From contig JANQRA010000023.1 in assembly GCA_028284765.1 (NCBI GenBank), positions 96,694-160,693 of the forward strand: a stretch of DNA of 64,000 bases, in the 5' to 3' direction. The translations under genes and the position numbers were made by a program. Of the stretch, positions 14,092 through 37,801 are shown one piece after another. Below the pieces are notes generated by a model. The model worked only from the letters and a program-made list of their open reading frames with translations. It did no database searches and was not told where the DNA came from. This DNA is from Acidimicrobiia bacterium (GTDB lineage: Bacteria; Actinomycetota; Acidimicrobiia; Spongiisociales; ZC4RG35). The stretch's first letter is position 1. The number at the start of each line of letters is the position of its first letter.

Positions 14092-14094
14092 ATC

Positions 14095-16826: not shown

Positions 16827-18335
16827 ATGTCCGCAACGATCTCTAGAGGCTTCTTGAGGCTGCGAGGTGCCCTCCTGGCGCTTCTAGCCGTCGCAGCTAC
16901 TCCTCTGCACCTCTACGCAGCAAACCCGGTTGGCATACCGAGGCCGGAGCGCCTACTTGGACTGACTATCGCCGTCTGGCTTTGTGCCATCGCCGTTTTG
17001 TTTTTTCTTCAACGTGCGGGCGTTCGACAGGTGGTCGCTGAGAACTCGGTGTTTGTGGGGACCGCCCTTCTTATGGTCGGCGGGGCCGTTTTCGGACGGT
17101 TCGGCCCTGCACTCATGCTTCTCGCGACGCTGTGTTCGATTGCTGTGTCGGTCCTGGTCTTCCGTGCCTTCGCTGACCATTGGGTGGTCATGGGGTTGAT
17201 TACTGCAGTTGCAGTTGGGCTGATGGTCGGCCCCCTGTTCACGTATCTGGAATCGAGGTCGTCGCAGGCAGGCCCGAGCGCTGTGCAACCGCCCGGCCCG
17301 CTGGAGATAGAAATGACCAAGAAGCCTGATATCTACGTCGTCGTCTTCGATGGGTACCCAGGGTCGCTCGCACTTGCTCAGGACGAGATTGGAGATGGAG
17401 AGGTTGACCTACACGCGGAACTCAATTCCCGTGGGTTCCAGGTCCCAACGAGTTGGACCTCCTACTGGACCACGACCCTTGCTATCCCAAGCCTTCTAGA
17501 AATGGGATATCCGGTCACTTCAGGAGACCCCACGTCCCTCGAAAGCATCGACCGTTTACAGAAGAGCATCGGCGGAGACAACGAGACTCGAAGAGTGTTG
17601 GAGGAGAACGGGTATCGGACTCACATGGTCGAAGCAGGGTGGAGCGGTGGCTCCTGCGGGAGTGGATTCGACCAATGTGAGCCGTCCCCGATGCTCGACG
17701 ACGTCATGTTTCTCACGACATATCGAACCGCAGCCCGTCCCATCCTGGGCCTATCTGCAGGACCGTTCGCTGTAGGAACGCTCGCGGCATTTGATTGGTT
17801 GATCGAAAATGGGCCGTCCCTATCGACGAACGCGAGCCCCGATTTCGTTTTCACTCATGTGGTGGCACCCCATGCTCCGTACGTTTTACAGGGAGACTGC
17901 TCACGGACTGGCGACGAGCGAACGGTTACGGCCGGTTTCGTCGACGAGGAATCTACGGTCAGCTCCGGAGAGGGGCTGGAGGCGCAGATGGACTGTGTCG
18001 AGAGTCTGATGGTGGATTTCGTCGATCGCTTGCAGGAAGACGACGTCGTCGTCCTGGTTTCCGATCACGGCTCGGCCAGTCGTGGCCAACTCGACGAATC
18101 AAATGCCCCTTGGACACAGGAGGCAATTGTCGAGAGGATGAACAACCTCGTTGCAGCACGTCTCCCCGACTCGTGCAGAGTCGCTGACCCTGTGATGCTC
18201 CCAAACGTCATGCGTCACGTGTTCTCTTGCTTCTCGAGTCAAGAACTCGCGCCATTGCCAGAGCGCATGTGGGTCAATCCTATGGTTGAGATTGAGAGCG
18301 ATGTTCTCGCATCCCTTCTCGGCATGGCTCCCTGA
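16827..18335 (+). CDS. Membrane-anchored alkaline-phosphatase-superfamily transferase (EptA/LtaS-like), paralogue 1
   Basis: About 5 N-terminal TM helices, then [59 protein letters not shown] and VVLVSDHGS. No sulfatase C/SxPxR motif. Starts 4 nt after the coaE stop. Confidence 0.7.
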
Positions 18336-20432: not shown

Positions 20433-21941
20433 TTGGCGATTCGAGTGGGCTTCGTTTTGGTTGTCGCGGCGGTCTATGTGCCGCTCCGAGTGCTCATCTC
20501 CAATCACGACAAGTTTCCGCACTTGGAGCGGTTTGCGGCGATAGTTGCTGTGTATCTAGTCCTGGCTGTTGTCTTCTTCGTTGTTGCTCGCCGGTTGGGA
20601 GCAGCTCATTTGCCGGCGCTCTTCGGTTCCGCCGTCTGGATCGTGTTGCTCTCGTCCGGGCGTAACCTGGCTGTTCAGCTCCCATGGAGCCTCGCCCTAG
20701 TGCTGACACTGATTGTGGCCGCCATGATCACTTTCATCGTGGGGAGGCTTCCCGACGGGTTTCAGCGGATCGCACCGATGGGGTTCGCGTTGTTTCTCCT
20801 TGCCGGTTTGGTACTTCCGGCGCTCGATATCCTCGAAGACATTTCCGAAGCCGATGTTGAAACGGCAGTTGCCACACCCCGCTCCAGCTTGCCGGAGTCA
20901 GCAGCCAGCACACCAGACGTGTTCCTGATCGTGCTCGATGGGATGGTGGGTGACGCGGCTCTGCGCACGGCTTATGGCGTCGAAGGCGGTGCGCCTCAAC
21001 ACAACACTCCCACCGCGAGTGGCTGGTCGAGCTACCCCGTCAGTTTGGGATCGATGTCAAGCGTCCTCAATATGGATCACACGCTTGAAGCTGGTTCGAT
21101 ACTTGACGGCCCCACACGCTCACAACTAGCGGAGATCATCAGTGGGGACAATCGGGCTACCACTTGGTTCAAAGAGGCTGGATACGAGACGACACTGGTC
21201 GAGTCAGGGTGGTCGCGGTCCTACTGCGGTTCGGCGATCGACACGTGTGTTGACTCCGCTTTTCTCGATGAGGGGATCTTCGAGGTTGTTCGTCAATCAG
21301 TGTTGGGCACTTTGCTGGAAAAGACCCTTGGGAGCGCCCTCACGATAGGAGCGCAACACTCGATGGAATGGCTACTCGAAAACACCCCACGGATCACCTC
21401 TGATGAGACTCCCGATTTCGTCTTCGCGACAGTCCTAGTCCCACACCCTCCACTCTTTCTGGACAGCGAGTGTGAGTTTCGGTATGACCCGATTCTCGGC
21501 GGGAACGGAATGTACATCGGTGGGTTGGCTGCTGGCGAACGAGAGGCGGCATATCTGGAGCAGTTCGAATGCGCCCAGCTCTTTGAGGCTACGTTCCTCC
21601 AGGTGGTGGAGCCGGACGACGTAGTTTTGATAATTTCGGACCACGGTTCTGACAAGGCCGGCCAGCTCACCAAGCAGGCCGAAGAATGGACTCTCGAAGA
21701 CCGCGTAGAGCGGTTGAACGTGCGAGCCACGACTCAGCTGCCCGATGGATGTGAGGAAGTCGATCCACTCATGCTGGTCGATGTACTTCGAAGGACACTC
21801 TTCTGCTTGGCCGGGATCCCCAACAGCCAACCGTTGGAGCATCGGATATTCATCTCAAGTCTGGTCGACGAGCCGAAGGTCCTTCTCATCGATGAGATGA
21901 CTGGTGGAGAGCTTGTCGAGTTGCTCGACGTCGGGCGTTAG
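20433..21941 (+). CDS. Membrane-anchored alkaline-phosphatase-superfamily transferase, paralogue 2
   Basis: N-terminal TM block, then TPDVFLIVLDGMVG, SYPVSLGSMSSVL (Ser at the presumed nucleophile position), GYETTLVESGWSRSYCG, PDFVFATVLVPHPPLF and VVLIISDHGS. Confidence 0.7.
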   Translation: MAIRVGFVLVVAAVYVPLRVLISNHDKFPHLERFAAIVAVYLVLAVVFFVVARRLGAAHLPALFGSAVWIVLLSSGRNLAVQLPWSLALVLTLIVAAMITFIVGRLPDGFQRIAPMGFALFLLAGLVLPALDILEDISEADVETAVATPRSSLPESAASTPDVFLIVLDGMVGDAALRTAYGVEGGAPQHNTPTASGWSSYPVSLGSMSSVLNMDHTLEAGSILDGPTRSQLAEIISGDNRATTWFKEAGYETTLVESGWSRSYCGSAIDTCVDSAFLDEGIFEVVRQSVLGTLLEKTLGSALTIGAQHSMEWLLENTPRITSDETPDFVFATVLVPHPPLFLDSECEFRYDPILGGNGMYIGGLAAGEREAAYLEQFECAQLFEATFLQVVEPDDVVLIISDHGSDKAGQLTKQAEEWTLEDRVERLNVRATTQLPDGCEEVDPLMLVDVLRRTLFCLAGIPNSQPLEHRIFISSLVDEPKVLLIDEMTGGELVELLDVGR

Positions 21942-22159: not shown

Positions 22160-23767
22160 CTAACCTTCGCTATTCCTTCCGGTCTCTAAGTCGGCAGACT
22201 CATCCGGATCCTTGAGAGGTATGACGGGCCCCTCGTACGTCGCGGCGTGGTACGAGCCCGGGAGCAGGCTTAGCTGGTTTGGTTGGATACACGAGAGCGC
22301 TATGCGCAGCAGATTGACCAGGTCCAAGTCTTCCGGTACCTCGGAGTCGCAGGAGGCAGGCAGGCGCAATGCGGTCATCGTCGCAAGACGCTCCCAGAGT
22401 TGGGTCTCGGTCCAACTTGACACGTCTGCGCCGAGCGTTCCTTCTGAGTCGGGTCCGTGGTCGGCCGTGATAATCACGATCTCTTCACCGGACAACTGTG
22501 TCAGGAAGTCTTCGATGACGGCGTTAGCGCAACGTAATTGTTCGATGTATGCGTCCTTTCTGAGCTCGAGGTGCTCTTCGGAGGTGACTTCCCACGTCAT
22601 AGTGGGGCCACCGAACCCTTCGCGCACATCGACATCGCAATCTGCGTCGAGATAGAAGGGCGGATGAGGGAGCTCGAGGTGGAGGAACGCAAAGACGGGA
22701 GCCGAGCCCCACTCGCTTCTGATTGAGCGCCAGCTACGAAGCTGATCGATGCGTTTCAGGTTCAGGTTGGTCTCCGGCTCCCCCGTGCGCGGATAAAGGA
22801 ATGGACCCAGTGGAGTGTCGGCGAGCAATCTGAAGACCGTTGCCTTTATGGGCGGACCGGGCAAGCAAATGTCGACCTCGTCTGTGCAGCGATTGATCCA
22901 GGTTTGCGTGTCACCGTGTACGTAGGTGTATCCGGAGCTCTTCAGGTATCGAACGGTGTTGTTGTCGCCGCCCATCATTTCTGCGAGCCGATCAAGATCT
23001 GCGGCTCCCAACGAAGTTCCGTCCTTGATTGGGTAGGCGAGGTCAAGGACTGAAGGGACGGAAGAGTGGGTGCCCGTGTAGTTAGCGCGAGCGTGTGAGG
23101 GAACAGTGAATCCCTGCGCCTCAAGGCCGCTGATGAACGCAGAATTGTCGTAGCCGTATAGATCCAGAAGCACGTCGCCGCGGGCGTACGAATCGACGAC
23201 GACGAACACAACATCCGGTTTGGCAGTCGCCGTACCAAGCTCGGGTTGCTCCGTTGCTGCAACCACCGGATCTGGCGTAGACGCGATTGATACCGCCAGC
23301 AAAACCAACATAGTTCCGGACAACGTGACGCTTGCCACGAACGCTCCCTTGCGTAGCAGGAGTGATGAGGAGAATCGTCTGGCCGCTGCGATGACAGCGG
23401 CTGCCACCAGAAGCGTGAGAACGGGTACACCTAACAGCTCGCCAGTGCTGCCAAAAGCGCCCCAATGCCAGAAGAAGAGCAGTGCAGCAGATGTCATCTC
23501 CAGGCTCGCCCACGATCCGACGGCCCGTCGCAACAGGGCGTGGGCAACCAGCGACAGAGCGAACACGAGGGCTCCGGTCAGAAGGGCCTCGGATTCCGAA
23601 GCTAGGGACCGTTGAGATCCGGTGAGAACGGAAAGGGGTATATGGAACGAGAGCGCTCCAAGCTGAAGGGCCACCCACCAAGCCGGAGGGCCGGTGTCGT
23701 CGGGTCGGCCCGAAGACAGGTCAGCCGTCGTTTGATCGGGTTTCATCAGTTTTGGTGATTGTCGCAT
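22160..23767 (-). CDS. Membrane-anchored alkaline-phosphatase-superfamily transferase, paralogue 3
   Basis: N-terminal TM block, then KPDVVFVVVDSYARG, NYTGTHSSVPSVL, GYTYVHGDTQTWINRC, PVFAFLHLELPHPPFY and IVIITADHGP. Confidence 0.7.
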   Translation of the reverse strand: MRQSPKLMKPDQTTADLSSGRPDDTGPPAWWVALQLGALSFHIPLSVLTGSQRSLASESEALLTGALVFALSLVAHALLRRAVGSWASLEMTSAALLFFWHWGAFGSTGELLGVPVLTLLVAAAVIAAARRFSSSLLLRKGAFVASVTLSGTMLVLLAVSIASTPDPVVAATEQPELGTATAKPDVVFVVVDSYARGDVLLDLYGYDNSAFISGLEAQGFTVPSHARANYTGTHSSVPSVLDLAYPIKDGTSLGAADLDRLAEMMGGDNNTVRYLKSSGYTYVHGDTQTWINRCTDEVDICLPGPPIKATVFRLLADTPLGPFLYPRTGEPETNLNLKRIDQLRSWRSIRSEWGSAPVFAFLHLELPHPPFYLDADCDVDVREGFGGPTMTWEVTSEEHLELRKDAYIEQLRCANAVIEDFLTQLSGEEIVIITADHGPDSEGTLGADVSSWTETQLWERLATMTALRLPASCDSEVPEDLDLVNLLRIALSCIQPNQLSLLPGSYHAATYEGPVIPLKDPDESADLETGRNSEG

Positions 23768-23864: not shown

Positions 23865-25187
23865 ATGAATCCTTCGAATCACTACAAAGAAACATCGGCA
23901 ACGGTCTATGTCGCCATGAGTGCAGATATTGTCCACCCTGGGCACATCAACATTCTCGAACACGCCCGCCAGTTGGGTCAGGTAACGATTGGGTTACTGA
24001 CAGACGAAGCCATCGCTAGCTACAAGCGCGCCCCCCTGATGTCATACGCCGAACGTGAGGCAGTAGTGGCAGTCCTTAAGGGCGTCACGAACGTCGTGCC
24101 GCAATCGACACTGGACTACCGGCCCAATCTCGAGCGACTCAAGCCTGACTATGTCGTCCACGGCGACGACTGGAAAGAAGGTGTTCAGGCGAAAACGAGG
24201 CAGCAGGTGATTGACGTTCTCGAGACTTGGGGTGGGGAGCTTGTAGAAGTTCCTTACACCGAAGGAATCTCATCGACACGCGTCCATCAGGCTATAGCTG
24301 CCAACGGGACTACCCCCGCCCTTCGTCGTCGCTACCTGAAGCGATTGCTAGACGTGAAGTCGCCAGTCAGAGTCATTGAAGCCCACAGTGGGCTGTCGGG
24401 TCTCATAGTTGAACACGCTTCTGTCTCGTTGGATGCAGGAGCAACGGCGAGCTTCGATGGAATGTGGTTGTCGAGCCTCACTGACTCGACGGTGAAGGGA
24501 CGGCCGGACACCGAATACGTCGATCTCACGTCTCGCATGTCCACGATCGGAGATGTCATGGAGGTCACGACTAAGCCGATCATCTACGACGGGGACACTG
24601 GTGGCTTGCCGGAGCACTTCGCGCTGAAGGTCAAGAGCCTTGAGCGCTTGGGGGTTTCCGCAGTGGTGATAGAGGACAAGATCGGTCCGAAACGGAACTC
24701 TCTGTTTGGAACAGAGGTCCATCAGATTCAGGATGACCCGGACTCGTTTGCTGAGAAGATCCGAATTGCCAAAGACGCGCAGGCGACCGACGACTTCATG
24801 GTTATCGCCCGGATTGAGTCACTAATTCTCGACCAGGGACCCGAGGACGCAATCAAACGCGGCAACACCTATATAGATGCTGGGGTCGATGGCCTAATGA
24901 TCCACTCTCGCGACCAAGACACGACGGTCCTTAAGAGTGTGATGTCGGAGTTCAAAGGTCGCACGCCGCTAGTCAGCGTGCCTTCAGCCTTTCCGCAAGA
25001 GACCGAGGAAGACCTGGCTGAAGCTGGAGCGAACATCGTTATCTATGCGAACCATCTACTCCGGGCGTCTTATCCGGCGATGGTGTCGGTTGCGGAGTCG
25101 ATTCTGCGACATGGCCGTGCGCTCGAGGCGGAAGAACTCCTTCTCCCGATTTCGGAGGCCCTGAAGCTGATACCAGGAAACCAATGA
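23865..25187 (+). CDS. pepM: Fusion: TagD/GCT-type cytidylyltransferase + phosphoenolpyruvate mutase
   Basis: GGAGG lies 4 nt before ATG 23865. The N-terminal domain has HPGH (HxGH) and YTEGISSTR (RTxGISTT-like). The C-terminal domain has [11 protein letters not shown] and the PepM discriminator EDKxxxxxNS ([10 protein letters not shown]). Confidence 0.85.
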
Positions 25188-26299
25188 TCGACCCGGCCCG
25201 GTTTGTCGAGGTCATTCAGGAGGAGGGGATTGAACTCTTCGCTGGGGTTCCCGATTCCCTCCTGAAGGCACTGAACACAGAACTCGACTTCGGGTCCGCA
25301 ACCAATGTTGTCGCTGCCAACGAGGGAGCTGCTGTCGCTCTCGCAGCGGGCCATTACATCGCTTCGGGGAAACCAGCGGCGGTCTACATGCAGAACTCGG
25401 GACTTGGCAATGCTGTGAACCCTTTGGCCTCCTTGACGAGTCCGGAGGTGTACGGGATACCAATGCTGTTGCTGATCGGGTGGCGTGGCGAGCCCGAAGT
25501 GCCAGACGCAGAACAACACCGACTCCAAGGGAAGATCACGCAGAACACGCTGGAGGACCTTGGCATCCCAAACTGGATGCTCAGGTCAGATTCGTCGGGG
25601 TGGGAGCAATTGGTTGGCGATGCCATCGAGGTGAGCGTCGAGCGATCAAGACCCGTTGCGTTCCTCATCTCGAAAGGCACCTTCGACACGCAACCGTCAC
25701 GTCCCGACCAAGATCCGGTTGGCTTGACTCGTCGTGCTGCGATTTCCGCCATCGTCGCAGGCATGCCGGATCGCACCCTGTACGTATCGACAACGGGGTA
25801 CACGTCCCGAGATCTTCACTCGATCCGTCGTGAACGCCGCGAGGCCGGCCGGCGCGACTTTCTTATGGTCGGCTCGATGGGGCACGCTATCTCAATCGCA
25901 CTCGGTGTCGCTCTCGAACGGCCGGACACTCCTGTCGTGTGTCTCGACGGAGATGGAGCGATGGCCATGCACATGGGGGCGTTGACGATGGTCGGTCAGG
26001 CAGTCCCCGCGAATCTCACACACGTCCTGCTCGACAATGGTGTTCATGAATCTGTAGGCGGGCAGCCGACTTCCCTCAACGGATTCGATTCTGCGGCCAT
26101 TGCTGCTGCTTGTGGCTACCGGTCGGTTCATTCGGTGAAAGATGAGGGGTCACTTGCGGCTCTGCTTATGCAGGTTCCCAACGTCCAAGGGCCAACATTC
26201 ATATCGATCAAGACTCGAGTGACTTCAACTGAGGGTGGCGACCGACCGTCCGACTTCTCAGGCCGTTTGGCCGCCTTGCGAAGCGACCTTGGCTCCTGA
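25184..26299 (+). CDS. ppd: Phosphonopyruvate decarboxylase (ThDP-dependent)
   Basis: N-terminus [24 protein letters not shown] and the ThDP motif [14 protein letters not shown]...LLDNGVHES. Has a 4-nt overlap with pepM. Confidence 0.85.
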
Positions 26300-27401
26300 A
26301 CTAATCCTCGGTCGCGGAAGCATCGATGGAATTCTGGAACTGGTACCTGATGCGACAGAAAGCATCCTGATAGTGCGCGGTTCCACTTCCTTCGAAGCGT
26401 CAGGTGCACGGGGCCGCCTTCGGCTTTCACTCGGAGGATTCGGACTAACCGAATACGTCCATTCCGCGCAACTGCCTAGCGCAGAGGAAGCCTTGGTGGC
26501 TGCCGGCGAGTTAGCCGCTCCCGACTTGATCGTTGCCGTTGGTGGGGGAGGTGTGATCGACACCGCAAAGCTCATTGCGGCAGCGTTGAGCAACGACCTG
26601 GACATCCGATCGCTTCTGGACGCGAGATTCTCGAACGCGATTCCAATCATTGCCGCTCCAACCACCGCGGGATCGGGGGCTGAAAGAACTCCTTTCGCCG
26701 TTGCCTATCAAGACGGGACGAAGTACTCGGTTGAAGACCCGTCACTACTTCCAGTCGGAGCAATTGTGGATCCGAGTCTCATGGAGTCGGTGCCCTCCAA
26801 CATCGCCGCCGCCGCGCTGTTCGACGCTCTTGCTCATGCGCTTGAGTCGATGTGGGCTGTGCGTTCCACCCCGAAGTCGCGGCTGTTGGCGAAGGACGCC
26901 TGCGAACAGATTCTGTCAGGGTTCTCGCAGGGGGGCTCATCCACGGCAAGCCGCGACCGCCTCGCATTTGGAGCGACCCTCGCCGGCGCGGCGATCGCTG
27001 TCGCGCGAACGACCGCTGCACACGCATTGTCTTACCATTTGACGAGCGAGTATCAGGTCCCTCACGGCGCAGCAGTAGCGTTGACTTTGGGTGCAATTCT
27101 CCGCTTGAACGCTGACTGCGACGATTCCAACTGCGTAGACCCACGCGGGTCTGCACACGTCCGTTCGGCAATCCGCGAGGCGTGCGACCTGCTGGGCGTC
27201 GACACACCGTTGGAGGCTCAGCGAGCGCTGCGTGCATTACAGGTTGACCTCGGATTGCCGCAGCGACTTTCTGAAGTCGGTTTGGTCGCTGCTTCTCAGC
27301 GACAACGATTCGCGGCGGCAGTGAACCAGCAACGTTTGGCCAACAATCCTCGACGTCTCGATGCAGTTGATATCCGTGACCTAGTTGAGGAGTTGGCCTG
27401 A
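26289..27401 (+). CDS. Group-III iron-containing alcohol dehydrogenase (candidate phosphonoacetaldehyde reductase)
   Basis: GGGGVIDTAK and PTTAGSGAE motifs. The start is uncertain: TTG 26289 gives a family-typical N-terminus, and the tracked GTG 26235 is also possible. The stop overlaps the next start by 1 nt. Confidence 0.75.
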   Translation: MAPELILGRGSIDGILELVPDATESILIVRGSTSFEASGARGRLRLSLGGFGLTEYVHSAQLPSAEEALVAAGELAAPDLIVAVGGGGVIDTAKLIAAALSNDLDIRSLLDARFSNAIPIIAAPTTAGSGAERTPFAVAYQDGTKYSVEDPSLLPVGAIVDPSLMESVPSNIAAAALFDALAHALESMWAVRSTPKSRLLAKDACEQILSGFSQGGSSTASRDRLAFGATLAGAAIAVARTTAAHALSYHLTSEYQVPHGAAVALTLGAILRLNADCDDSNCVDPRGSAHVRSAIREACDLLGVDTPLEAQRALRALQVDLGLPQRLSEVGLVAASQRQRFAAAVNQQRLANNPRRLDAVDIRDLVEELA

Positions 27402-28546
27402 TGGGCTTGCGGGATGCCTTGAGAGAGTCTTCGGAGATTGGAGCGATCCTGGCAACGCCGCCGGGTCAGCGGCCAGTGTTGTTCTACGCGGAAGACTCTC
27501 ATACCTATATCCAATTCGAGGGGCTAGTCCGCGAGTTGGTTCAGCGTCGCATACCTGTGACCTATGTGACCTCGCAACCAGACGATCCCATCTTCGGCCG
27601 GTCGGACGAGTTGCTGACCGTGAGATTCTTGTCCCGCCAGCTGGCGAATCTCATGAAACGCATCGAAGGGTCTCTAATAGTGATGACGATGCCGGACTTA
27701 GGGCGATTTCACGTACCCAAACCCGAAAACGCTCGTGTGCTCTACCTTTTTCACTCGTTGAACAGCCTCCACACCTCGTATAGGGATGGCGCCTTCGATC
27801 ACTATGACCACTTCGCTTGTACGGGTCCACATCACATCAAGGAGTTGGAGCGCCTTGCCGAGATCAGACAGAAGCCAGTCGCACAGTTCCACGAAGTGGG
27901 CTACTACAAGCTCGATCGGATCGAACGCCATCATTCCACCTTTTCCCCCCCGGGTTCAGCGAGGCCACGAGTTCTTCTTGCACCATCGTGGAGTCCGGGA
28001 AATCTTCTAGAAGCTCATGGCCGGCAGATTGTCCACGGTCTGCTCGCTGCGAAGATGAGTGTGATTGTTCGACCCCATCCCCAGTTCTTTCACTCCCTGT
28101 ACCCGACCGGCCGTGAGGTCGTTGATCAACTGGTCCAAGAGTTCCAATCGAGTCCCGATGTCGAGTTCGAGCTGACAATCGACTCCGAGGACTCGTTTCA
28201 CACAGCGGATCTAATGGTGAGTGACTGGTCGGGGGCCGCGTACGAATATGCACTAGGCACCAGACGCCCTGTCATGTTTGTCGATACCCCCCAGAAGCTG
28301 TTCAATCCAGAATGGGCCGAGGTGGGACTTCCCGCATTCGAGGAGGCCAAGCGGCACGAAGTCGGAATCATCCTTTCCTCGGCCGAGATCGAGGCGGTCG
28401 GCGACAGATCTCGGCAGCTGATCGAAGGGCGTGAATCGTGGTCTGAGAAGTTGAGTGACCTGCGCAAGCAGTTGGTGTTCAATCCGGGAAGCTCGAGCGC
28501 AGTTCTCGGCGATTTGGTTGAGTCACTAATTCAACGACGGGTCTGA
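27401..28546 (+). CDS. TagB/TagF-family (CDP-glycerol glycerophosphotransferase-like) transferase
   Basis: LYLFHSLNSLH, VLLAPSW, VRPHPQ and DLMVSDWSGAAYEYALGTRRPVMFVD resemble the Glyphos_transf motifs (WHG, HP, SDYSS..PxIFF). Confidence 0.6.
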   Translation: MGLRDALRESSEIGAILATPPGQRPVLFYAEDSHTYIQFEGLVRELVQRRIPVTYVTSQPDDPIFGRSDELLTVRFLSRQLANLMKRIEGSLIVMTMPDLGRFHVPKPENARVLYLFHSLNSLHTSYRDGAFDHYDHFACTGPHHIKELERLAEIRQKPVAQFHEVGYYKLDRIERHHSTFSPPGSARPRVLLAPSWSPGNLLEAHGRQIVHGLLAAKMSVIVRPHPQFFHSLYPTGREVVDQLVQEFQSSPDVEFELTIDSEDSFHTADLMVSDWSGAAYEYALGTRRPVMFVDTPQKLFNPEWAEVGLPAFEEAKRHEVGIILSSAEIEAVGDRSRQLIEGRESWSEKLSDLRKQLVFNPGSSSAVLGDLVESLIQRRV

Positions 28547-28841: not shown

Positions 28842-30350
28842 GTGAGTTCGACGAAACGACAGACTGCGCGGCCCACCAAGGGTGAGTTGGTGCTTCTTGC
28901 GGTTCCAGCTCTATGGGCACCAGCTCGTCTCGTGTCCGACAACTTCGTCGGCATCCCACACTTCGAGCGTCTGTTCGCTCTGGCAGGCATTCTGTTTCTG
29001 ATTGGCATCTCGTGCCGATGGCTTCTCATGAAAGCCGGAGTGGCTGCACGCACTTGCACATATACCGCCTTCTTCCTCCTGGTAGGACTGGTCGCGGCCG
29101 GCCCTTTCGTCAGGCAGTTCGGATCGGTGATTGGCATTGGGGTTGTTGTTCTGGCGGTTGGCGTGATTGCGGCACTCTCGCATTTGCGCCCTGAGTCCAC
29201 TGTCGCGGACGCCATTGTCGTAGCAACAGCAGTTGCTCTGATTTCGGGTCCAATTGTGGCTTCATTGGAGACGGCCTCCGCGTATGGCGAGTCGACAGTC
29301 GACATGTCAGTTTCGACCAACCTCGAACTCTCGAGCAAACCCGATATCTGGCTGGTCGTTTTTGATGGTTACTCGGGCCGAATTTCCATGGAGAAGGACT
29401 TAGGCGTGCCATGGGAGGAACAACTCTTGGCATCGCTACAGGAGGCGGGCTTCGTTGTCCCCAACTCGGTATGGGCGTCGTACCCGAATACGAAACTCAG
29501 TGTCCCCAGCCTGCTCAACATGGACTACCCCGCGAGTCAGTGGGTCGACAATGGGGCCACAACCCAAGACCTCTACGACGTGATAGCCGGGGAGTCTGTC
29601 GTTGTGCAAACACTGCTCGCGAACGGCTATGAGACCCATATGGTGGAGTCGGGTTGGAGCGGCAGTTCTTGTGGTGACGGTTTCCAGGTTTGTGTTGCCT
29701 CACCGATCTATGACGCAGGTATGAACTACATCGCATTCAATTCGATCCTCGGAGACACCGGGCTCGTGCGGCCCGGATTCGCATTTGCTCATGGGGCTCA
29801 AAGCATGATGGATTGGATGGTCGGCAACGCTGAGAGGATCAGCCATGACGGGCGGCCCTCGTTTGTGTTCGCTCACCTTGTCACTCCGCATCCCCCATTC
29901 TTCCTTGACGAAGGATGCGAGACGGTGGTGGACGAGCAAAGAGATGGCTTCTTCTTTCCCCATCCGGGTGTCTCAGATGAGGATCGCAACGCGTTCTTTC
30001 GCGATCAGCTCGAATGCGTGGACAACTTCGTTTCCGAATTCTGGCCGCTGCTGGCTGAGGATGATGTTCTCATCTTGACTTCGGATCACGGTATGGGGCG
30101 GTATGGGCAGATGGGGGCAGATCCCTCGGAGTGGACATATGAAGACGTTCGGGAACGCCTCAACGTGCTTCTAGCACTTCGAGGAACCGACCAGTGTTTC
30201 GACGAGAGTCCGATATTCCTTCCGCAGGTAATGGCGAGACTGTTCGGATGTCTGTCTGGTGACACGCCTGACCTTGTTACACCTAGGATTTTCCTCGGGC
30301 CCGACACTGAAGTTGGTACACGAACGCTCGAACGGCTACTTCGAGAGTGA
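28842..30350 (+). CDS. Membrane-anchored alkaline-phosphatase-superfamily transferase, paralogue 4
   Basis: N-terminal TM block, then KPDIWLVVFDGYSG, SYPNTKLSVPSLL, GYETHMVESGWSGSSCG, PSFVFAHLVTPHPPFF and VLILTSDHGM. Confidence 0.7.
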   Translation: MSSTKRQTARPTKGELVLLAVPALWAPARLVSDNFVGIPHFERLFALAGILFLIGISCRWLLMKAGVAARTCTYTAFFLLVGLVAAGPFVRQFGSVIGIGVVVLAVGVIAALSHLRPESTVADAIVVATAVALISGPIVASLETASAYGESTVDMSVSTNLELSSKPDIWLVVFDGYSGRISMEKDLGVPWEEQLLASLQEAGFVVPNSVWASYPNTKLSVPSLLNMDYPASQWVDNGATTQDLYDVIAGESVVVQTLLANGYETHMVESGWSGSSCGDGFQVCVASPIYDAGMNYIAFNSILGDTGLVRPGFAFAHGAQSMMDWMVGNAERISHDGRPSFVFAHLVTPHPPFFLDEGCETVVDEQRDGFFFPHPGVSDEDRNAFFRDQLECVDNFVSEFWPLLAEDDVLILTSDHGMGRYGQMGADPSEWTYEDVRERLNVLLALRGTDQCFDESPIFLPQVMARLFGCLSGDTPDLVTPRIFLGPDTEVGTRTLERLLRE

Positions 30351-30457: not shown

Positions 30458-31831
30458 ATGAAGCTCTCAGTCCTAATGCCCGTCTACAACGAGTCGCGCA
30501 CGCTGCGCACGATCGTTGAAAAGGTCCTCGCAGCACCGGTCGACATCGAAATCGAGTTGGTCTGTGTAGACGACTGCTCCAAAGACGATTCCCTCGAAAT
30601 CCTCCGCGAACTTGCTGAGCAGGACGACCGGATCAAGGTCTTCGCCCAACCGGTGAACATGGGGAAGGGCAAGGCAATCCGAACTGCGATCGACAAGATG
30701 ACTGGCGACATCGCCATCATCCAAGACGCCGACCTGGAGTACGACCCTGATGAGTACCCGTTGGTTCTGGCTCCCCTCCTCGAAGGTCGTGCCGACGCGG
30801 TCTACGGATCACGGTTTGCTTCGAGCGAGCAGCGACGAGTTCTGTTCTTCTGGCACTCGCTGGGTAACAAGCTTCTGACGCTGCTCTCCAACATGGCCAA
30901 CGATCTGAATCTCACTGACATGGAGACTTGCTACAAGGCTGTCCGAGCCGACGTCCTGAAGCGGCTTCGACTGACGAGTGACCGGTTCGGCCTTGAGCCT
31001 GAAATCACCGCACGTTTAGCTTCGTGGGGTGCCCGGATATATGAGGTTCCGATCAGCTATCACGGGCGCACCTACGCCGAAGGAAAGAACATCGGTTGGC
31101 GTGACGGTGTGGAGGCCATTTGGTTGATCTTCAAGTTCAGGTTCTTGGACAACAGGGCCACGGACGAAGACTCGGTGGTCACGAGACAGGCATTGGGCAA
31201 AGCCTCGAGATTCCGGAAGTGGTCGCTTTCGGCCTTCGACGGATATATCGGAGATCGCGTTCTGGAGCTCAACGCCGGGCCGGGCCACACCACCAGCCAC
31301 CTGCTGGGAGCCGAACAACTGATAGTTACCGACAATGACCCGGTGCACGTCGAAACGTTGCGCAGGCGGTTCGGCCACATGGAGAACGTTGAGATCCGCC
31401 TGGCTGAAGACGGTGACGGCGCCGAAGTCGACACGGCGATCGTCTTTGACGGGCTCCAGCGGGTAGGCGAGCCCAAGGAACTGCTCACACAAGTGGCATC
31501 GTCTGTTCGTTCAGGCGGTCATATCCTGATTCAAGTACCGGCTGGCCCTGAGCTTTTTGGTACGACTGACGAGGCTGCCGGCCATGTTCGCCGCTTCGAT
31601 AGCCAAGAGCTGCGTGAGGTCATTCAGGGAGCTGGCCTCGAACCCGTTCAGGTGAACGGCTTCAACAAGCTAGGAGCCATCGGATGGCGTTTGCATCACG
31701 CATTCGGAGCGGGCCGGATTACTGCGTCAGAAGCAAGGGCCTTTGATTTGATGGTTCCCATTGCAAGGCGTTTAGAGCCTCTGCTCCCCGGTGACAGCTT
31801 GAGTCTCTTGGCTGTCGCCAGAGTCCCGTAG
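30458..31831 (+). CDS. Fusion: family-2 glycosyltransferase + class I SAM-dependent methyltransferase
   Basis: The N-terminus has LMPVYNE, VDDCSKDDS and QDADLEYDP. The C-terminal half has VLELNAGPGH (SAM motif I) and an IVFDGL..GGHILIQVP region. Confidence 0.75.
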   Translation: MKLSVLMPVYNESRTLRTIVEKVLAAPVDIEIELVCVDDCSKDDSLEILRELAEQDDRIKVFAQPVNMGKGKAIRTAIDKMTGDIAIIQDADLEYDPDEYPLVLAPLLEGRADAVYGSRFASSEQRRVLFFWHSLGNKLLTLLSNMANDLNLTDMETCYKAVRADVLKRLRLTSDRFGLEPEITARLASWGARIYEVPISYHGRTYAEGKNIGWRDGVEAIWLIFKFRFLDNRATDEDSVVTRQALGKASRFRKWSLSAFDGYIGDRVLELNAGPGHTTSHLLGAEQLIVTDNDPVHVETLRRRFGHMENVEIRLAEDGDGAEVDTAIVFDGLQRVGEPKELLTQVASSVRSGGHILIQVPAGPELFGTTDEAAGHVRRFDSQELREVIQGAGLEPVQVNGFNKLGAIGWRLHHAFGAGRITASEARAFDLMVPIARRLEPLLPGDSLSLLAVARVP

Positions 31832-31838
31832 GAGAGCC

Positions 31839-32912
31839 ATGCGAAAGGCGGGCCCGCTTGCCGTTGCCCTGGTGGGCGCTCTCATCATGGGAGGGATAGC
31901 CGTCAGGGTTCTATCCGAAGTTGATTGGGATCCCACGATCTTCGTCGCTTTTGGGGAAGAGGCCGCTCCGACTACCGAATACGCAATGGAGCGACTCGGG
32001 GAAGACATCTTCCTCCGGCCATCTCAGGGCCACGATGGCAAGTTCTTCTTCGTCCAGTCCAATGACCCCTGGATTCTCGATCCAGATGAGAACGCTCTCG
32101 TCCTCGATCGACCCCTCTACCGCAGTCAACGAATGCTGTATCCGGTCCTTGCTGGAGGTGCGGGTTTGTTCGGGCCAGAGGCGATCACGTGGGCGATGTT
32201 GATCGTGAACATCCTTGCGATGGGTGCCGGGACTTGGGTTGTGGCTCGGATCGCTATGGAGATGGGCGGTTCGCCATGGTGGGGCCTGGCCTTCGCCCTC
32301 AACCTTGGCTTCATAAGCGAGGTCAACATTGGGGGAGCAGGAGTCGTGGCTGCGGCGGCTGCCTATGGTGCAGTCTTGGCTGCGATGAGAGGTCGAAAAA
32401 CGGCGGCTGTCGTCTTGCTAGCTATTGCCGTCTTGTCGCGGGAAGCGATGCTCCTGGCCGCGGCGGGGACTGCGCTCTGGCTTTGGTTCAATCAAGAAAG
32501 ACGGTTTGCTGTTTGGACGGCGGTCGTACCTGTGGGGGTAGTGGCCTCTTGGGCTGCGTATCTCCGGTTGCGTATCGCTGAAGGCAATGTCGTCTCCCAG
32601 GTTCAAGAGATCGGTATTCCGTTCCAGGGTTTCATCGAAGCCTTCTCCTCTTGGGTCGAAGAGCCGATCAACCTCGCCGCCGGGGTGGCGATCATGATGC
32701 TGTTCGTTCTGTATGTGCGGAGGGTTGTGATTTCGCGACACCTAGTTGGAGTGGCCTTCGTCGGCTTCGTCCTCCTCGGAGTGCTCTTCACAGAACAGGT
32801 CTGGGGTTCCTACTTCGATATCACGAGAGCCGTGGCGCCGATCATCACCAGCTTCGTGCTCATGGTGTTCATAGCTTCAAAAACATCAGAACGAACAGGT
32901 GTTCGGGTCTAA
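31839..32912 (+). CDS. Polytopic membrane protein, paralogue A of a three-member family
   Basis: 357 aa. Shares QGHDGKFFFVQSNDPW...YRSQRMLYPVLAG and a C-terminal ...TRAVAPII pattern with 36707..37753 and 35805..36761. Confidence 0.65.
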   Translation: MRKAGPLAVALVGALIMGGIAVRVLSEVDWDPTIFVAFGEEAAPTTEYAMERLGEDIFLRPSQGHDGKFFFVQSNDPWILDPDENALVLDRPLYRSQRMLYPVLAGGAGLFGPEAITWAMLIVNILAMGAGTWVVARIAMEMGGSPWWGLAFALNLGFISEVNIGGAGVVAAAAAYGAVLAAMRGRKTAAVVLLAIAVLSREAMLLAAAGTALWLWFNQERRFAVWTAVVPVGVVASWAAYLRLRIAEGNVVSQVQEIGIPFQGFIEAFSSWVEEPINLAAGVAIMMLFVLYVRRVVISRHLVGVAFVGFVLLGVLFTEQVWGSYFDITRAVAPIITSFVLMVFIASKTSERTGVRV

Positions 32913-35804: not shown

Positions 35805-36761
35805 GTGGCCCGCCAGCGACGACTCGAAATCGCAATCCTGATCGCCATCGTCGCGCTCGTCGCTTTGTGGGCTCGTCACTCCTACATCCCCACATTCCAC
35901 GATCGACATGTCGAGGTTTCGGAGCAGAAGTACAACTTCGATGTCGGCAATCCGGGCCCTTGGTTCTCTGCCTGGTCGCTAGGCGACGGGCAGGCGTATG
36001 TACTCATCGCACTAGATCCGACCGGCGGGAAGCTCGACGAAGAGATCGATGAGGCCGGTTATAGGTTTGCCAGGGCCTCGTATGGCTGGGCGACGGCAGC
36101 TGCGTCCCTGGGCCGGAACACCGCGATCCCGTATGCGTTGGCCGCTGTCGGGTTGGCGTCCCTCATCGGGTTGGTCGTTGTTACAACTCGTTTGGCCGAG
36201 CGGCTGGGACGCAAGGCATGGTTGGTAGTTGTGAATCCGGCGATCTATATCGGCTTCGCCGGGGATACACCGGAACCGCTGGCGGTTCTACTTCTCGCAC
36301 TCTCCATGTCTGGAGCTGGCTTGTGGGCCAGTGCAGTGCTGGGGGTCACTCGGCCTACGTACCTCATCGCACTCTGGGGTCAGTGGCGACGCTTTGTCGT
36401 GGGCGCAGCGGCTGCCACCCTGCTCGCCGTTTACAGCGCTCTGGCGTTTGGTCTCGGCGCCATGAGTCCGGCCGGAGGACGACTGGGACTGCCGTTGGCT
36501 TCCTACATCGAGCATTCTTCGAGCTGGGGATGGCTTCTTGCCCTGGTCGCCTTAGCGACGCTGGTAGTCGGTTGGCGCAGAAGGGATTGGGCTTGGGTCC
36601 TTGCTGCTGCGTTTGTCCTGTGTTTCGGCGACGACGTCCTCAGGGATCCGGTCAACGCTTGGCGGGCTGCTGGGTTTTTGCCGGTGTTGTGGGCGTTCGG
36701 ACGGGGTTATCGAGTTCCTGCCAGAAATCGCTCCGATGCAGAGGCTTCCGCCGTCGGCTGA
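35805..36761 (+). CDS. Polytopic membrane protein, paralogue B
   Basis: 318 aa with LGDGQAYVLIALDPTG...GYRFARASYGW and a C-terminal NAWRAAGFLPVL. Its last 55 nt overlap the convergent paralogue C. Confidence 0.6.
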   Translation: MARQRRLEIAILIAIVALVALWARHSYIPTFHDRHVEVSEQKYNFDVGNPGPWFSAWSLGDGQAYVLIALDPTGGKLDEEIDEAGYRFARASYGWATAAASLGRNTAIPYALAAVGLASLIGLVVVTTRLAERLGRKAWLVVVNPAIYIGFAGDTPEPLAVLLLALSMSGAGLWASAVLGVTRPTYLIALWGQWRRFVVGAAAATLLAVYSALAFGLGAMSPAGGRLGLPLASYIEHSSSWGWLLALVALATLVVGWRRRDWAWVLAAAFVLCFGDDVLRDPVNAWRAAGFLPVLWAFGRGYRVPARNRSDAEASAVG

Positions 36762-37753: not shown

Positions 37754-37801
37754 GGCAGTCTCACACGCTTCGCATCACTCAACTGGAATCGGAATCTGCC
37801 G

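What the first reader, a model, noticed from the sequence alone, without database searches (positions are those of the whole stretch)
23865..28546. Phosphonate operon built from teichoic-acid-type parts: TagD-like cytidylyltransferase::PepM fusion, Ppd, Fe-ADH, TagF-like transferase
Seen: four + strand ORFs are chained by overlaps at 25184-25187, about 26289-26299, and 27401, so they look translationally coupled. ORF1 is a fusion. Its N-terminal ~135 aa carry HPGH and YTEGISSTR, the HxGH and RTxGISTT motifs of TagD/GCT/ECT cytidylyltransferases. The rest carries the PEP-mutase discriminator EDKxxxxxNS ([10 protein letters not shown]). ORF2 has the ThDP motif and N-terminus of phosphonopyruvate decarboxylase. 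ORF3 is a group-III iron ADH (GGGGVIDTAK, PTTAGSGAE), the class used as phosphonoacetaldehyde reductase (PhpC/FomC/DhpG). No aminotransferase is present, so the predicted product is 2-hydroxyethylphosphonate (HEP) rather than 2-AEP. ORF4 looks like a TagB/TagF glycerophosphotransferase. Established: CMP activation of phosphonates exists (PntC, FrbH), and HEP-decorated phosphonoglycans have been isolated from Glycomyces and Stackebrandtia. Inference: here the activating and transferring enzymes are the wall-teichoic-acid pair rather than LicC/LicD types. HEP keeps a free 2-OH, so a TagF-type enzyme fed CMP-HEP could cap a glycan. In principle it could also polymerise HEP into a teichoic-acid analogue with C-P bonds in the backbone. 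I know of no described polymer of that kind.
Basis: partly seen in the sequence, partly recalled or inferred. Interest (0 to 1): 0.8.

Follow-up and report, generated by a model that had tools for sequence, protein, structure and literature searches.

The report
Hydroxyethylphosphonate cell-surface decoration gene cluster
This is a real four-gene operon that should make the carbon-phosphorus compound 2-hydroxyethylphosphonate, activate it with CMP and hand it to a teichoic-acid-polymerase-like transferase; its core is already known from fosfomycin and phosphonoglycan producers, while the transferase belongs to an uncharacterised family tightly linked to phosphonate genes in many uncultured bacteria.

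Summary
Four overlapping + strand genes encode a cytidylyltransferase::PEP-mutase fusion, phosphonopyruvate decarboxylase, an iron alcohol dehydrogenase and a TagF-like GT-B protein.

The cytidylyltransferase domain is not a borrowed TagD. It is 66% identical to the Fom1 domain that makes CMP-HEP in fosfomycin biosynthesis, and such fusions make up about 24% of all PEP mutases. The same three-gene core, with neighbouring PF04464 (TagF-like) genes, is present in Glycomyces sp. NRRL B-16210, a proven HEP-phosphonoglycan producer.

ORF4 itself looks new:
- It founds a large uncharacterised clade of TagF relatives (3540 representative clusters).
- In 26 of 31 species-level genomes, all MAGs from about eight phyla, it lies beside PepM, Ppd and Fe-ADH.
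- Membrane-anchored alkaline-phosphatase-superfamily proteins lie next to it in 22 of 31 loci, and the window holds four paralogs.
- Elsewhere the family is fused to YidC-like and LtaS-like domains.

Best reading: CMP-HEP is made in the cytoplasm and ORF4 transfers the phosphonyl group to a lipid- or glycan-linked hydroxyl for surface display. A poly-HEP teichoic-acid analogue is not excluded but has no positive evidence (about 0.1).

The parts
23865..25187 (+). ORF1: bifunctional Fom1-type HEP cytidylyltransferase (about aa 12-144) fused to PEP mutase (about aa 155-440)
   Evidence: PF01467 plus PF13714, and TIGR02320 above its cut-off. 66% identity to the Fom1 CyTase domain 5X3D; the PepM domain hits 5UNC and 1M1B. 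67%/56% identity to the Glycomyces NRRL B-16210 protein. Motifs [12 protein letters not shown] and [10 protein letters not shown] are present.
25184..26299 (+). ORF2: phosphonopyruvate decarboxylase (ThDP-dependent)
   Evidence: TIGR03297 scores 402 bits against a 312-bit cut-off; TPP_enzyme_N and TPP_enzyme_C are present. ATGA overlap with ORF1.
26235..27401 (+). ORF3: group III iron alcohol dehydrogenase, probable phosphonoacetaldehyde reductase. The start is GTG 26235 or, more likely, TTG 26289.
   Evidence: Fe-ADH plus ADH_Fe_C. The best NCBIfam model is the phosphonate-cluster Fe-ADH TIGR03405, below its cut-off. A homolog is conserved next to Ppd in 26 related loci.
27401..28546 (+). ORF4: soluble GT-B protein of a divergent TagF-like clade; candidate CMP-HEP:acceptor phosphonyl transferase
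   Evidence: PF04464 at 28.2 bits, and in 32 of 37 relatives. AF2 model pLDDT 94; TagF 3L7K is the top Foldseek hit. The family profile hits only TarL, Cps3D and TagF, and H226 aligns with TagF H584. No TM segment. Adjacent to PepM/Ppd/ADH in 26 of 31 genomes.
22160..23767 (-). Membrane-anchored alkaline-phosphatase-superfamily protein (paralog A), divergent from ORF1
   Evidence: PF00884 at 53.7 bits. N-terminal TM segments, ADHG and PHPP motifs, no C/SxPxR sulfatase signature. Orthologs flank the cassette in L005-L008, L023, L027, L029 and L030.
28842..30350 (+). Membrane-anchored alkaline-phosphatase-superfamily protein (paralog B), downstream of ORF4
   Evidence: PF00884 at 41.8 bits. About five TM segments. 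29-34% identity to the other three paralogs. T217 is nearly invariant at the nucleophile position.
20433..21941 (+). Alkaline-phosphatase-superfamily paralog C
   Evidence: No Pfam hit on its own, but 30% identity to paralog B over 466 aa, E 3e-62. SDHG and PHPP motifs are present.
16827..18335 (+). Alkaline-phosphatase-superfamily paralog D (upstream of uvrB)
   Evidence: 34% identity to paralog B over 482 aa, E 1e-68. Weak PF00884 match, E 0.007.
30458..31831 (+). GT2 (polyprenyl-phosphate-sugar-synthase-like) fused to a SAM methyltransferase
   Evidence: PF00535 plus Methyltransf_23. NCBIfam matches are AglJ-, ArnC- and PpgS-like. Syntenic at 58-78% identity in L005-L008, L023 and L027.
31839..32912 (+). 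Ten-TM protein related to the AZOBR_p60025 'cell surface glycopolymer formation' family
   Evidence: NF046093 E 1.8e-34, 119 bits, below its 150-bit cut-off. TM prediction; synteny.

Best explanation
The locus is a cell-envelope phosphonate ('phosphonoglycan-type') cluster.

Step 1, strongly supported by homology. The PepM domain of ORF1 converts PEP to phosphonopyruvate. ORF2 decarboxylates it to phosphonoacetaldehyde. ORF3 reduces that to 2-hydroxyethylphosphonate (HEP).

Step 2, strongly supported by homology. The N-terminal Fom1-type cytidylyltransferase domain of ORF1 condenses HEP with CTP to give CMP-HEP.

Step 3, inferred. ORF4 is a cytoplasmic TagF-like GT-B enzyme. It uses CMP-HEP as TagF uses CDP-glycerol: an acceptor hydroxyl attacks the phosphonate phosphorus, CMP leaves, and the acceptor carries -O-P(O)(O-)-CH2CH2OH. 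The acceptor is probably a membrane-bound intermediate, either a lipid or a polyprenyl-linked sugar.

Step 4, weaker inference. The product is flipped across the membrane. The four membrane-anchored alkaline-phosphatase-superfamily paralogs have a threonine at the nucleophile position and no sulfatase signature. They would move or process the phosphonyl head group outside the membrane, by analogy with LtaS and EptA. The final target would be a surface glycopolymer made with the adjacent GT2-methyltransferase, the AZOBR_p60025-like membrane protein, and the sugar-modifying genes between uvrA and uvrC.
For: Steps 1 and 2:
- Curated equivalog models are passed for PepM and Ppd.
- The CyTase domain is 66% identical to the structurally and biochemically characterised Fom1 CyTase domain (PMC6697681).
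- The trio has the same gene order, at 67/56/43/37% identity, as in Glycomyces sp. NRRL B-16210, from which a HEP-phosphonoglycan was isolated (Li & Horsman, PMC8942020).
- JGI annotates homologs as 'PEP phosphomutase / 2-hydroxyethylphosphonate cytidylyltransferase'.

Step 3:
- Three independent lines give TagF-like homology, including conservation of the TagF H584 equivalent. It is one of only two invariant residues across 124 sequences.
- ORF4 homologs at 32-56% identity lie beside PepM, Ppd and Fe-ADH in 26 of 31 species-level genomes from about eight phyla. Gene order varies: downstream, upstream or divergent.
- In Terriglobia the four genes stand alone among housekeeping genes.
- The partnership survives replacement of the PF01467 domain by a PF12804 nucleotidyltransferase.
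- A second, distant PF04464 clade sits beside the same core in Glycomyces.

Step 4:
- TM-anchored PF00884 proteins of three subfamilies neighbour ORF4 homologs in 22 of 31 loci.
- Single polypeptides combine YidC-like, ORF4-like and sulfatase/LtaS-like domains. Two of the four examined lie in phosphonate-type contexts.
- The paralogs lack C/SxPxR.
Against: - No biochemical data exist for any ORF4-family member. The donor, the acceptor, and single versus repeated transfer are all inferred.
- The Pfam match of ORF4 itself is short (80 aa, 28 bits). Single-sequence and narrow-profile PDB searches found nothing.
- Foldseek E-values for ordinary GT-B glycosyltransferases are only about three orders of magnitude weaker than for TagF.
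- The equivalent of the second TagF catalytic histidine (H444) was not mapped.
- ORF3 scores below the equivalog cut-off for the phosphonate-cluster ADH.
- Two loci with adequate flanks (L020, L025) have an ORF4 homolog without PepM nearby. Two fusion proteins (L039, L040) show no phosphonate genes nearby.
- The role of the AP-superfamily paralogs rests on co-occurrence and motifs only. They could be hydrolases, and no usable structure model was obtained.
Confidence: 0.7

Rival explanations
1. Poly-HEP polymer. ORF4, or the LtaS-like paralogs working outside the cell, add HEP-phosphonyl units repeatedly to the free 2-OH of the previous unit. The result would be a teichoic-acid analogue with C-P bonds in its backbone.
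For: The closest solved relatives of ORF4 (TagF, TarL, Cps3D) are all polymerases. CMP-HEP is isosteric with CDP-glycerol and keeps a free hydroxyl (chemistry). The window has four LtaS-architecture paralogs, recalling the multiple LtaS paralogs of Bacillus (own knowledge). The bare four-gene cassette in Terriglobia has no glycan genes nearby.
Against: The only characterised HEP conjugates are decorations on polysaccharides (PMC8942020). The same Pfam family includes single-addition primases such as TagB (own knowledge), so homology cannot show processivity. No TagO/TagA-type primer genes or TagGH-type exporter were seen among the Pfam-scanned ORFs of 180 aa or more between 14 and 46 kb. The neighbours are glycan-type genes: GT2s, methyltransferases, a pyruvyl transferase.
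Confidence: 0.1
2. ORF4 is an ordinary GT-B glycosyltransferase, or a CDP-glycerol/ribitol transferase, that builds the glycan. HEP is attached by another enzyme, for example the AP-superfamily proteins or an unlinked LicD.
For: Many GT-B glycosyltransferases match the model at E 1e-9 to 1e-7. The Glycomyces cluster also carries LicD-like genes that could be the HEP transferases there. Rice et al. proposed LicD-like enzymes for AEP.
Against: The only sequence-level relatives in Pfam and the PDB are TagF-family phosphotransferases. No LicD is present in the window or in the minimal cassettes. The only nucleotidyltransferase in the cassette is the HEP-type one, so CMP-HEP is the only activated donor encoded. 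Linkage to PepM in 26 of 31 genomes is hard to explain for a generic glycosyltransferase.
Confidence: 0.12
3. The operon makes a diffusible small-molecule phosphonate, fosfomycin-like, in which CMP-HEP is only a transient intermediate.
For: Fom1, Fom2 and FomC are the closest characterised homologs of ORF1-3, and CMP-HEP is a fosfomycin intermediate.
Against: No radical-SAM/B12 methyltransferase (Fom3), HppE-type epoxidase (Fom4) or FomD-type hydrolase family was found among the scanned neighbours. The neighbours are membrane and glycan enzymes. The same core sits in a proven phosphonoglycan cluster.
Confidence: 0.04

Closest known systems
Fom1/Fom2/FomC, the early steps of fosfomycin biosynthesis in Streptomyces wedmorensis
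   Same: Same bifunctional architecture: an N-terminal PF01467 cytidylyltransferase plus a PEP mutase. 66% identity to the Fom1 CyTase domain (5X3D). It is followed by Ppd and an Fe-ADH, and the predicted intermediate is CMP-HEP.
   Different: No Fom3, Fom4 or FomD was detected. CMP-HEP is predicted to be a donor for transfer, not a substrate for C-methylation.
HEP-phosphonoglycan clusters of Glycomyces sp. [quoted passage not shown] 2014, cited in PMC8942020)
   Same: Same core order, CyTase-PepM | Ppd | Fe-ADH, at 67/56/43/37% identity. PF04464 (TagF-like) genes lie directly beside the core, with glycosyltransferases nearby. S. nassauensis PepM is likewise a PF01467 fusion.
   Different: The Glycomyces TagF-like proteins (571 aa with an N-terminal TM region; 1147 aa fused to GT2) belong to a different clade: 28.6% identity to ORF4 over 126 aa. 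Glycomyces has two TPR-LicD genes and no PF00884 gene within 10 kb. The window has no LicD and four PF00884-type paralogs.
TagF/TarL/Cps3D: CDP-alditol-dependent teichoic-acid and capsule polymerases (PF04464)
   Same: GT-B fold with TagF as the best structural match. Shared APxW(R), R-x-H and (S/T)D(W/Y)S(G/S) motifs. H226 aligns with TagF H584.
   Different: Very low identity (13% in the structural alignment). The Pfam match covers only part of the profile. The protein is only 381 aa, with no membrane-targeting or extra domains. The predicted donor is a CMP-phosphonate rather than a CDP-alditol.
Pnt pathway (PntC cytidylyltransferase plus LicD-like transferase) for AEP decoration
   Same: Same logic: nucleotidyl activation of a phosphonate, then transfer to a surface glycan. 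Some ORF4-family members lie in PntC/AEPT/LicD contexts (L037).
   Different: Here the nucleotidyltransferase fold differs (PF01467, not PF12804). The phosphonate differs (HEP, not AEP), and so does the candidate transferase fold (GT-B, not LicD).
LtaS/EptA/OpgB-type membrane-anchored alkaline-phosphatase-superfamily transferases
   Same: An N-terminal multi-TM anchor plus an extracytoplasmic PF00884-type domain. Conserved Asp, DHG and His ligands. Thr at the nucleophile position and no formylglycine motif. The AP domain of fusion protein P0229 best matches LtaS and LtaP, weakly.
   Different: No significant direct sequence match of the window paralogs to LtaS or EptA structures; the best PDB hits are arylsulfatases at E 1e-8. 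The substrate is unknown, and no structural model was obtained.

Membership tests
PEP mutase (Ppm/PepM) | EDKX5NS motif that separates Ppm from isocitrate-lyase-family relatives | tested here: met
   [10 protein letters not shown] at ORF1 aa 270.
PEP mutase (Ppm/PepM) | Score above the curated equivalog cut-off, and above paralogous models | tested here: met
   TIGR02320 scores 351.4 bits against a 319.6-bit cut-off. PrpB scores 85 and phosphonopyruvate hydrolase 135, both far below their cut-offs.
Phosphonopyruvate decarboxylase | Curated equivalog model plus ThDP-binding domains | tested here: met
   TIGR03297 scores 402 bits against a 312.5-bit cut-off. TPP_enzyme_N and TPP_enzyme_C are present, with a GDG...N motif.
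Fom1-type HEP cytidylyltransferase domain | PF01467 fold with HxGH and a C-terminal (R/Y)TxGISST motif, fused N-terminally to Ppm, with close similarity to the characterised Fom1 domain | tested here: met
   PF01467 E 2.5e-15. HPGH and YTEGISST are present. 87/131 (66%) identity to 5X3D, E 9.5e-56.
Fom1-type HEP cytidylyltransferase domain | CTP + HEP -> CMP-HEP activity | not testable with these tools
   Requires an enzyme assay.
TagD/GCT glycerol-3-phosphate cytidylyltransferase | Curated equivalog model TIGR01518 | tested here: not met
   48.2 bits against a 165.4-bit cut-off. The PDB match to 1COZ is E 2.9e-10, against 9.5e-56 for Fom1.
Phosphonoacetaldehyde reductase (PhpC/FomC-type Fe-ADH) | Group III Fe-ADH fold with NAD(P) and metal motifs | tested here: met
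   PF00465 plus PF25137. GGGGVIDTAK, DALAH and H...H motifs are present.
Phosphonoacetaldehyde reductase (PhpC/FomC-type Fe-ADH) | Curated phosphonate-cluster Fe-ADH equivalog (TIGR03405) | tested here: not met
   It is the best-scoring model, but at 167 bits against a 424-bit cut-off. The function is inferred from conserved position after Ppd in 26 loci.
TagF-like CDP-alditol phosphotransferases (PF04464) | Pfam model above its gathering score | tested here: met
   ORF4 scores 28.2 bits against 22.1, covering only profile positions 225-292. 32 of 37 relatives match, and fused relatives cover profile positions 24-350.
TagF-like CDP-alditol phosphotransferases (PF04464) | GT-B fold closest to TagF | tested here: met
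   AF2 model pLDDT 94.1. The Foldseek top hit is 3L7K (TagF), E 5.4e-12, TM 0.57. Bcs3 8A0C, which I recall (own knowledge) contains a TagF-like polymerase domain, is also hit.
TagF-like CDP-alditol phosphotransferases (PF04464) | Active-site histidines: H584 and H444 of S. epidermidis TagF (roles recalled from Lovering et al. 2010, own knowledge) | tested here: inconclusive
   The H584 equivalent is present: ORF4 H226 aligns to it and is invariant in 124 sequences. H444 lies outside the aligned region. H118 (nearly invariant across 124 sequences) and H124 (invariant in the 37-sequence set) are candidates but were not mapped.
TagF-like CDP-alditol phosphotransferases (PF04464) | Use of a CDP-alditol donor, and polymerase versus primase behaviour | not testable with these tools
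   Needs assays with CMP-HEP, CDP-glycerol and acceptors.
Formylglycine sulfatases | C/S-x-P-x-R signature | tested here: not met
   Absent from all four window paralogs. A Thr occupies the aligned nucleophile position.
LtaS/EptA-type membrane phosphotransferases | N-terminal multi-TM anchor plus an AP-superfamily domain with a Thr nucleophile | tested here: inconclusive
   TM segments and PF00884 are present, and T217 is nearly invariant. There is no significant direct match to LtaS or EptA. The single-sequence AF2 model was unusable, pLDDT 37.7.
Fosfomycin biosynthetic cluster | Fom3 (B12/radical SAM), Fom4 (HppE) and FomD present | tested here: not met
   None of these families appears among the Pfam-scanned ORFs of 180 aa or more between 14 and 46 kb.

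The most novel reading that the evidence does not exclude
The ORF4 family, together with the LtaS-architecture paralogs, forms a previously undescribed 'make, flip, transfer' machine. In some bacteria it is fused into one YidC-like/TagF-like/LtaS-like polypeptide. In this reading it polymerises or caps with HEP-phosphonyl units, producing a teichoic-acid-like envelope polymer whose backbone contains C-P bonds and therefore resists phosphodiesterases.
Probability: 0.1. Interest if true: 0.85.

Novelty: new variant of a known kind. Interest (0 to 1): 0.45.

Why it matters
How phosphonates get from CMP-conjugates onto cell surfaces is an acknowledged gap. Rice et al. 2019 call the tailoring steps 'enigmatic'.

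This locus does not reveal a new pathway. The fusion, CMP-HEP and HEP-phosphonoglycans are all known.

What it does provide is a clean, widely conserved candidate for the missing transferase. The family has about 3500 representative clusters, almost all from uncultured soil and sediment phyla. It is the only transferase in a self-contained four-gene cassette.

The recurrent AP-superfamily neighbours and the YidC/TagF-like/LtaS-like fusions suggest a testable route across the membrane. Confirmation would give the first enzyme for HEP transfer. It would also help explain the origin of esterified phosphonates in environmental organic phosphorus.

Tried and rejected
Searches and models that gave nothing usable:
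- phmmer of ORF4 and a 37-sequence profile against the PDB found nothing. Only the 124-sequence profile reached TagF-family structures.
- A single-sequence AlphaFold model of paralog B was unusable (pLDDT 37.7), so no fold comparison of the AP-superfamily proteins was possible. I should have supplied an alignment.
- tblastn of ORF4 against 72,556 plasmids gave no match.
- Yu et al. 2013 and 2014 and PMC3466329 (the id I recalled for Metcalf et al. 2012) are not held. The Li & Horsman supplement is not held. So I could not read how the published Glycomyces and Stackebrandtia clusters were annotated.
- The RefSeq-length PepM proteins of S. nassauensis and Glycomyces were 'not on record'. The 436-aa Glycomyces version worked. 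The S. nassauensis neighbourhood itself was not examined.
- Literature searches combining phosphonate terms with TagF or glycerophosphotransferase found no paper linking them.

Readings considered and rejected:
- A fosfomycin-type cluster: no Fom3, Fom4 or FomD.
- True sulfatases: no C/SxPxR.
- TagD recruitment: the TIGR01518 test fails and the Fom1 identity is far higher.
- An obligate TagD+TagF pairing: L022 uses a PF12804 nucleotidyltransferase instead.

Full report
OBSERVATION

The four + strand ORFs are real and tightly packed.
- ORF1 starts at ATG 23865, behind a GGAGG, and ends in an ATGA overlap with ORF2 at 25184-25187.
- ORF2 stops at 26299. ORF3 starts in frame at GTG 26235 or TTG 26289, so it overlaps ORF2 either way.
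- The ORF3 stop and ORF4 start overlap in TGATG at 27399-27403.
- All quoted motifs are present.

Profile searches confirm the domain calls.
- ORF1 is PF01467 CTP_transf_like plus PF13714 PEP_mutase. It passes the curated PEP-mutase equivalog (351 bits against 320) and fails the methylisocitrate-lyase and phosphonopyruvate-hydrolase models.
- ORF2 passes the phosphonopyruvate decarboxylase equivalog (402 bits against 312).
- ORF3 is a group III Fe-ADH. Its best NCBIfam model is the phosphonate-cluster ADH, though below that model's cut-off.
- ORF4 has one Pfam match, Glyphos_transf (28 bits, gathering score 22), over only 80 residues.

THE ACTIVATING ENZYME IS A KNOWN, PHOSPHONATE-DEDICATED TYPE

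The N-terminal domain of ORF1 matches PDB 5X3D, the cytidylyltransferase domain of Fom1, at E 9.5e-56 and 66% identity (87/131). It matches TagD/GCT (1COZ) at only E 2.9e-10, and it scores 48 bits against the 165-bit cut-off of the glycerol-3-phosphate cytidylyltransferase model.

Rice et al. (PMC6697681) record two relevant facts. The Fom1 domain cytidylylates HEP to CMP-HEP. And 23.6% of all EDKX5NS-bearing Ppm proteins are fused to PF01467.

A database search seeded with the S. nassauensis PepM gave at least 8000 such fusions at E <= 1e-50. Many are labelled by JGI 'PEP phosphomutase / 2-hydroxyethylphosphonate cytidylyltransferase'.

THE KNOWN HEP-PHOSPHONOGLYCAN PRODUCER HAS THE SAME CORE AND ALSO TagF-LIKE GENES

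The Glycomyces sp. NRRL B-16210 locus (L041) reads as follows:
- a 571-aa PF04464 protein
- CyTase-PepM
- Ppd
- Fe-ADH
- two TPR-LicD proteins
- a 1147-aa GT2 + PF04464 protein

ORF1-3 are 67/56/43/37% identical to the Glycomyces core. The combination of TagF-like genes with a HEP core is therefore precedented in a chemically validated cluster. However, the Glycomyces TagF-like proteins are only remotely related to ORF4: 28.6% identity over 126 aa, and 24 bits to the ORF4-family profile.

WHAT ORF4 IS

ORF4 is a soluble 381-aa protein with no TM segment. Its family is highly conserved; a 37-sequence alignment shows 56 invariant columns.

An alignment-based AlphaFold model is confident (pLDDT 94.1, pTM 0.91). 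Its best PDB match is the teichoic-acid polymerase TagF (3L7K, E 5.4e-12, TM 0.57). Generic GT-B enzymes follow, along with Bcs3 (8A0C), which I recall (own knowledge) contains a TagF-like domain.

PF04464 is the only Pfam family hit, in 32 of 37 members. In fused relatives the match extends over profile positions 24-350.

A 124-sequence family profile hits only three things in the PDB: TarL (1.1e-7), the TagF-like capsule polymerase Cps3D (1.6e-6) and TagF (1.6e-4). Three motifs align: GYxxLD, APxW and (S/T)D(W/Y)S. H226 falls on TagF H584 by my count of the printed alignment. H226 is one of only two invariant residues in the 124 sequences. The second TagF active-site histidine (H444, from memory of Lovering et al. 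2010) lies outside the aligned region and was not mapped.

ORF4 is thus a divergent member of the TagF-like superfamily, not an unrelated GT-B family.

GENOMIC LINKAGE

A scan of one genome per GTDB species returned 31 loci with ORF4 homologs (32-56% identity). All are MAGs: Acidimicrobiia and other Actinomycetota, bins labelled Acidobacteriota or Terriglobia, Planctomycetota, Gaiellaceae, Vulcanimicrobiota, Xenobia, Myxococcota, Chloroflexota and Alphaproteobacteria. The scan used two strict peptide patterns, so more divergent cultured carriers could have been missed.

- In 26 of 31 loci, PepM, Ppd and Fe-ADH lie next to the ORF4 homolog. Three of the five exceptions are contig fragments.
- Gene order varies. 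ORF4 lies after the ADH, before PepM, or divergent from it. That argues for selection on linkage.
- In a Terriglobia genome the four genes stand alone between a copper ATPase and aconitase.
- In Xenobia (L022), PepM carries a C-terminal PF12804 (LicC/PntC-type) nucleotidyltransferase instead of PF01467, yet keeps Ppd, Fe-ADH and a divergent ORF4 homolog. So there is no obligate TagD-type plus TagF-type pairing. The constant elements are HEP synthesis, nucleotidyl activation and ORF4.
- An exhaustive profile search counts 3540 representative clusters at E <= 1e-3, and 1008 at E <= 1e-30.

A FIFTH, OVERLOOKED COMPONENT

The window holds four paralogs, 26-34% identical to each other, at 16827-18335, 20433-21941, 22160-23767 (-) and 28842-30350. 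Each has about five N-terminal TM segments followed by an alkaline-phosphatase-superfamily domain.
- They lack the C/SxPxR sulfatase signature.
- They keep the Asp, PH(A/P)P and (S/A)DHG motifs.
- They have a nearly invariant Thr at the position that aligns with the sulfatase nucleophile.

TM-anchored PF00884 proteins of three different subfamilies flank ORF4 homologs in 22 of 31 loci.

Some ORF4-family members are single polypeptides that combine a genuine YidC core, the ORF4-like domain and a sulfatase/LtaS-like domain.
- In P0229 the YidC core matches 5MG3 at E 1.6e-13, and the AP domain best matches LtaS 2W5R at E 0.026.
- P0229 follows LicD x2, an Aminotran_5 gene and a PF12804 gene.
- P0225 lies two genes after a Ppd homolog.
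- Two other fusions show no phosphonate genes nearby.

This supports a functional link between the cytoplasmic TagF-like step and an extracytoplasmic AP-superfamily step. The direction and chemistry of that second step are inferred by analogy with LtaS and EptA (own knowledge).

SURROUNDINGS

The window is an actinobacterial-type core region. In order it carries:
- polA, rpsA, tad-pilus genes, a two-component system and coaE
- uvrB
- the cluster
- uvrA
- an epimerase/dehydratase, a methyltransferase, a GT2, a polysaccharide pyruvyl transferase with an FrhB-like partner, and an LPG_synthase_TM protein
- uvrC, rapZ, a CofD-like gene, pgk and tpiA

Directly after paralog B come a GT2::methyltransferase (AglJ/ArnC/PpgS-like) and a ten-TM protein related to the AZOBR_p60025 'cell surface glycopolymer formation' family. 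Both are syntenic in the closest relatives. The context is therefore surface glycopolymer synthesis and modification. No Fom3, Fom4 or FomD-type family was seen.

MECHANISM AND CONFIDENCE

- Steps to CMP-HEP: about 0.9, by homology to characterised enzymes.
- ORF4 as the CMP-HEP phosphonyl transferase: about 0.65, from fold, family and linkage.
- Envelope glycoconjugate as the destination: about 0.6, from context.
- AP paralogs as extracytoplasmic transferases: about 0.4.
- A poly-HEP backbone is chemically feasible, and the nearest solved relatives are polymerases. Nothing here distinguishes a polymerase from a single-addition enzyme, and known HEP conjugates are decorations. I give it about 0.1.

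VERDICT

It rests on a mistaken premise of novelty for the fusion and for the teichoic-acid pairing.

The locus is a new variant of the known HEP-phosphonoglycan type. Its value is a conserved, uncharacterised TagF-like clade that is the best available candidate for the missing HEP transferase.

Noticed in passing
window 16827-18335 (+), 20433-21941 (+), 22160-23767 (-), 28842-30350 (+): Four paralogous proteins, each with about five TM segments plus an alkaline-phosphatase-superfamily domain, surround the operon. Three are exactly 502 aa. They have no sulfatase C/SxPxR motif and carry a Thr at the nucleophile position.
   Followed up: partly
P0229, P0252, P0225, P0219, P0260, P0266 (loci L037-L040): ORF4-family domains occur fused to a genuine YidC/Oxa1 core and to a sulfatase/LtaS-like domain in single proteins of 630-1360 aa. 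This probably explains why JGI labels many stand-alone 380-aa homologs 'YidC/Oxa1 family membrane protein insertase'. I know of no description of this architecture.
   Followed up: partly
window 37493-43959: A second block of glycopolymer genes lies between uvrA and uvrC: an NAD-dependent epimerase/dehydratase, a methyltransferase, a GT2, a polysaccharide pyruvyl transferase overlapping an FrhB/FdhB-like protein, and an LPG_synthase_TM protein on the minus strand.
   Followed up: no
window 5744-12152: Tad/Flp-type pilus genes (RcpC/CpaB, a ParA-like ATPase, CpaF-type T2SSE, two T2SSF proteins). The first T2SSF protein (9274-11220) carries an N-terminal von Willebrand factor A domain.
   Followed up: no
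window 12149-13501; 35805-36761; 36707-37753 (-): ORFs with no Pfam match. The first is a 450-aa protein with at least seven TM segments, just after the tad genes. The latter two sit between uvrA and the epimerase and have syntenic unannotated counterparts in L005.
   Followed up: no
L004/L009 about 12469-14750: In this MAG the Ppd gene appears split. A 543-aa product combines Sulfatase/Phosphodiest hits with TPP_enzyme_N, followed by a separate 140-aa TPP_enzyme_C protein. This could be a fusion, an insertion or an assembly or frameshift artefact.
   Followed up: no
L022 5746-7434 (-): Here PepM is fused at its C-terminus to a PF12804 (LicC/PntC-type) nucleotidyltransferase rather than at its N-terminus to PF01467. 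The rest of the HEP/ORF4 cassette is kept.
   Followed up: yes
L012, L014, L018, L019: Multi-TM DUF6020 proteins recur immediately downstream of ORF4 homologs in Acidimicrobiia-type loci. They may be the membrane glycosyl or polymer transferases of that lineage.
   Followed up: no
L006, L007, L009, L023 (record titles): Several MAGs labelled 'uncultured Acidobacteriota' share the actinobacterial uvrB-cluster-uvrA synteny and 54-70% identity with the window. Their taxonomic labels may deserve checking.
   Followed up: no
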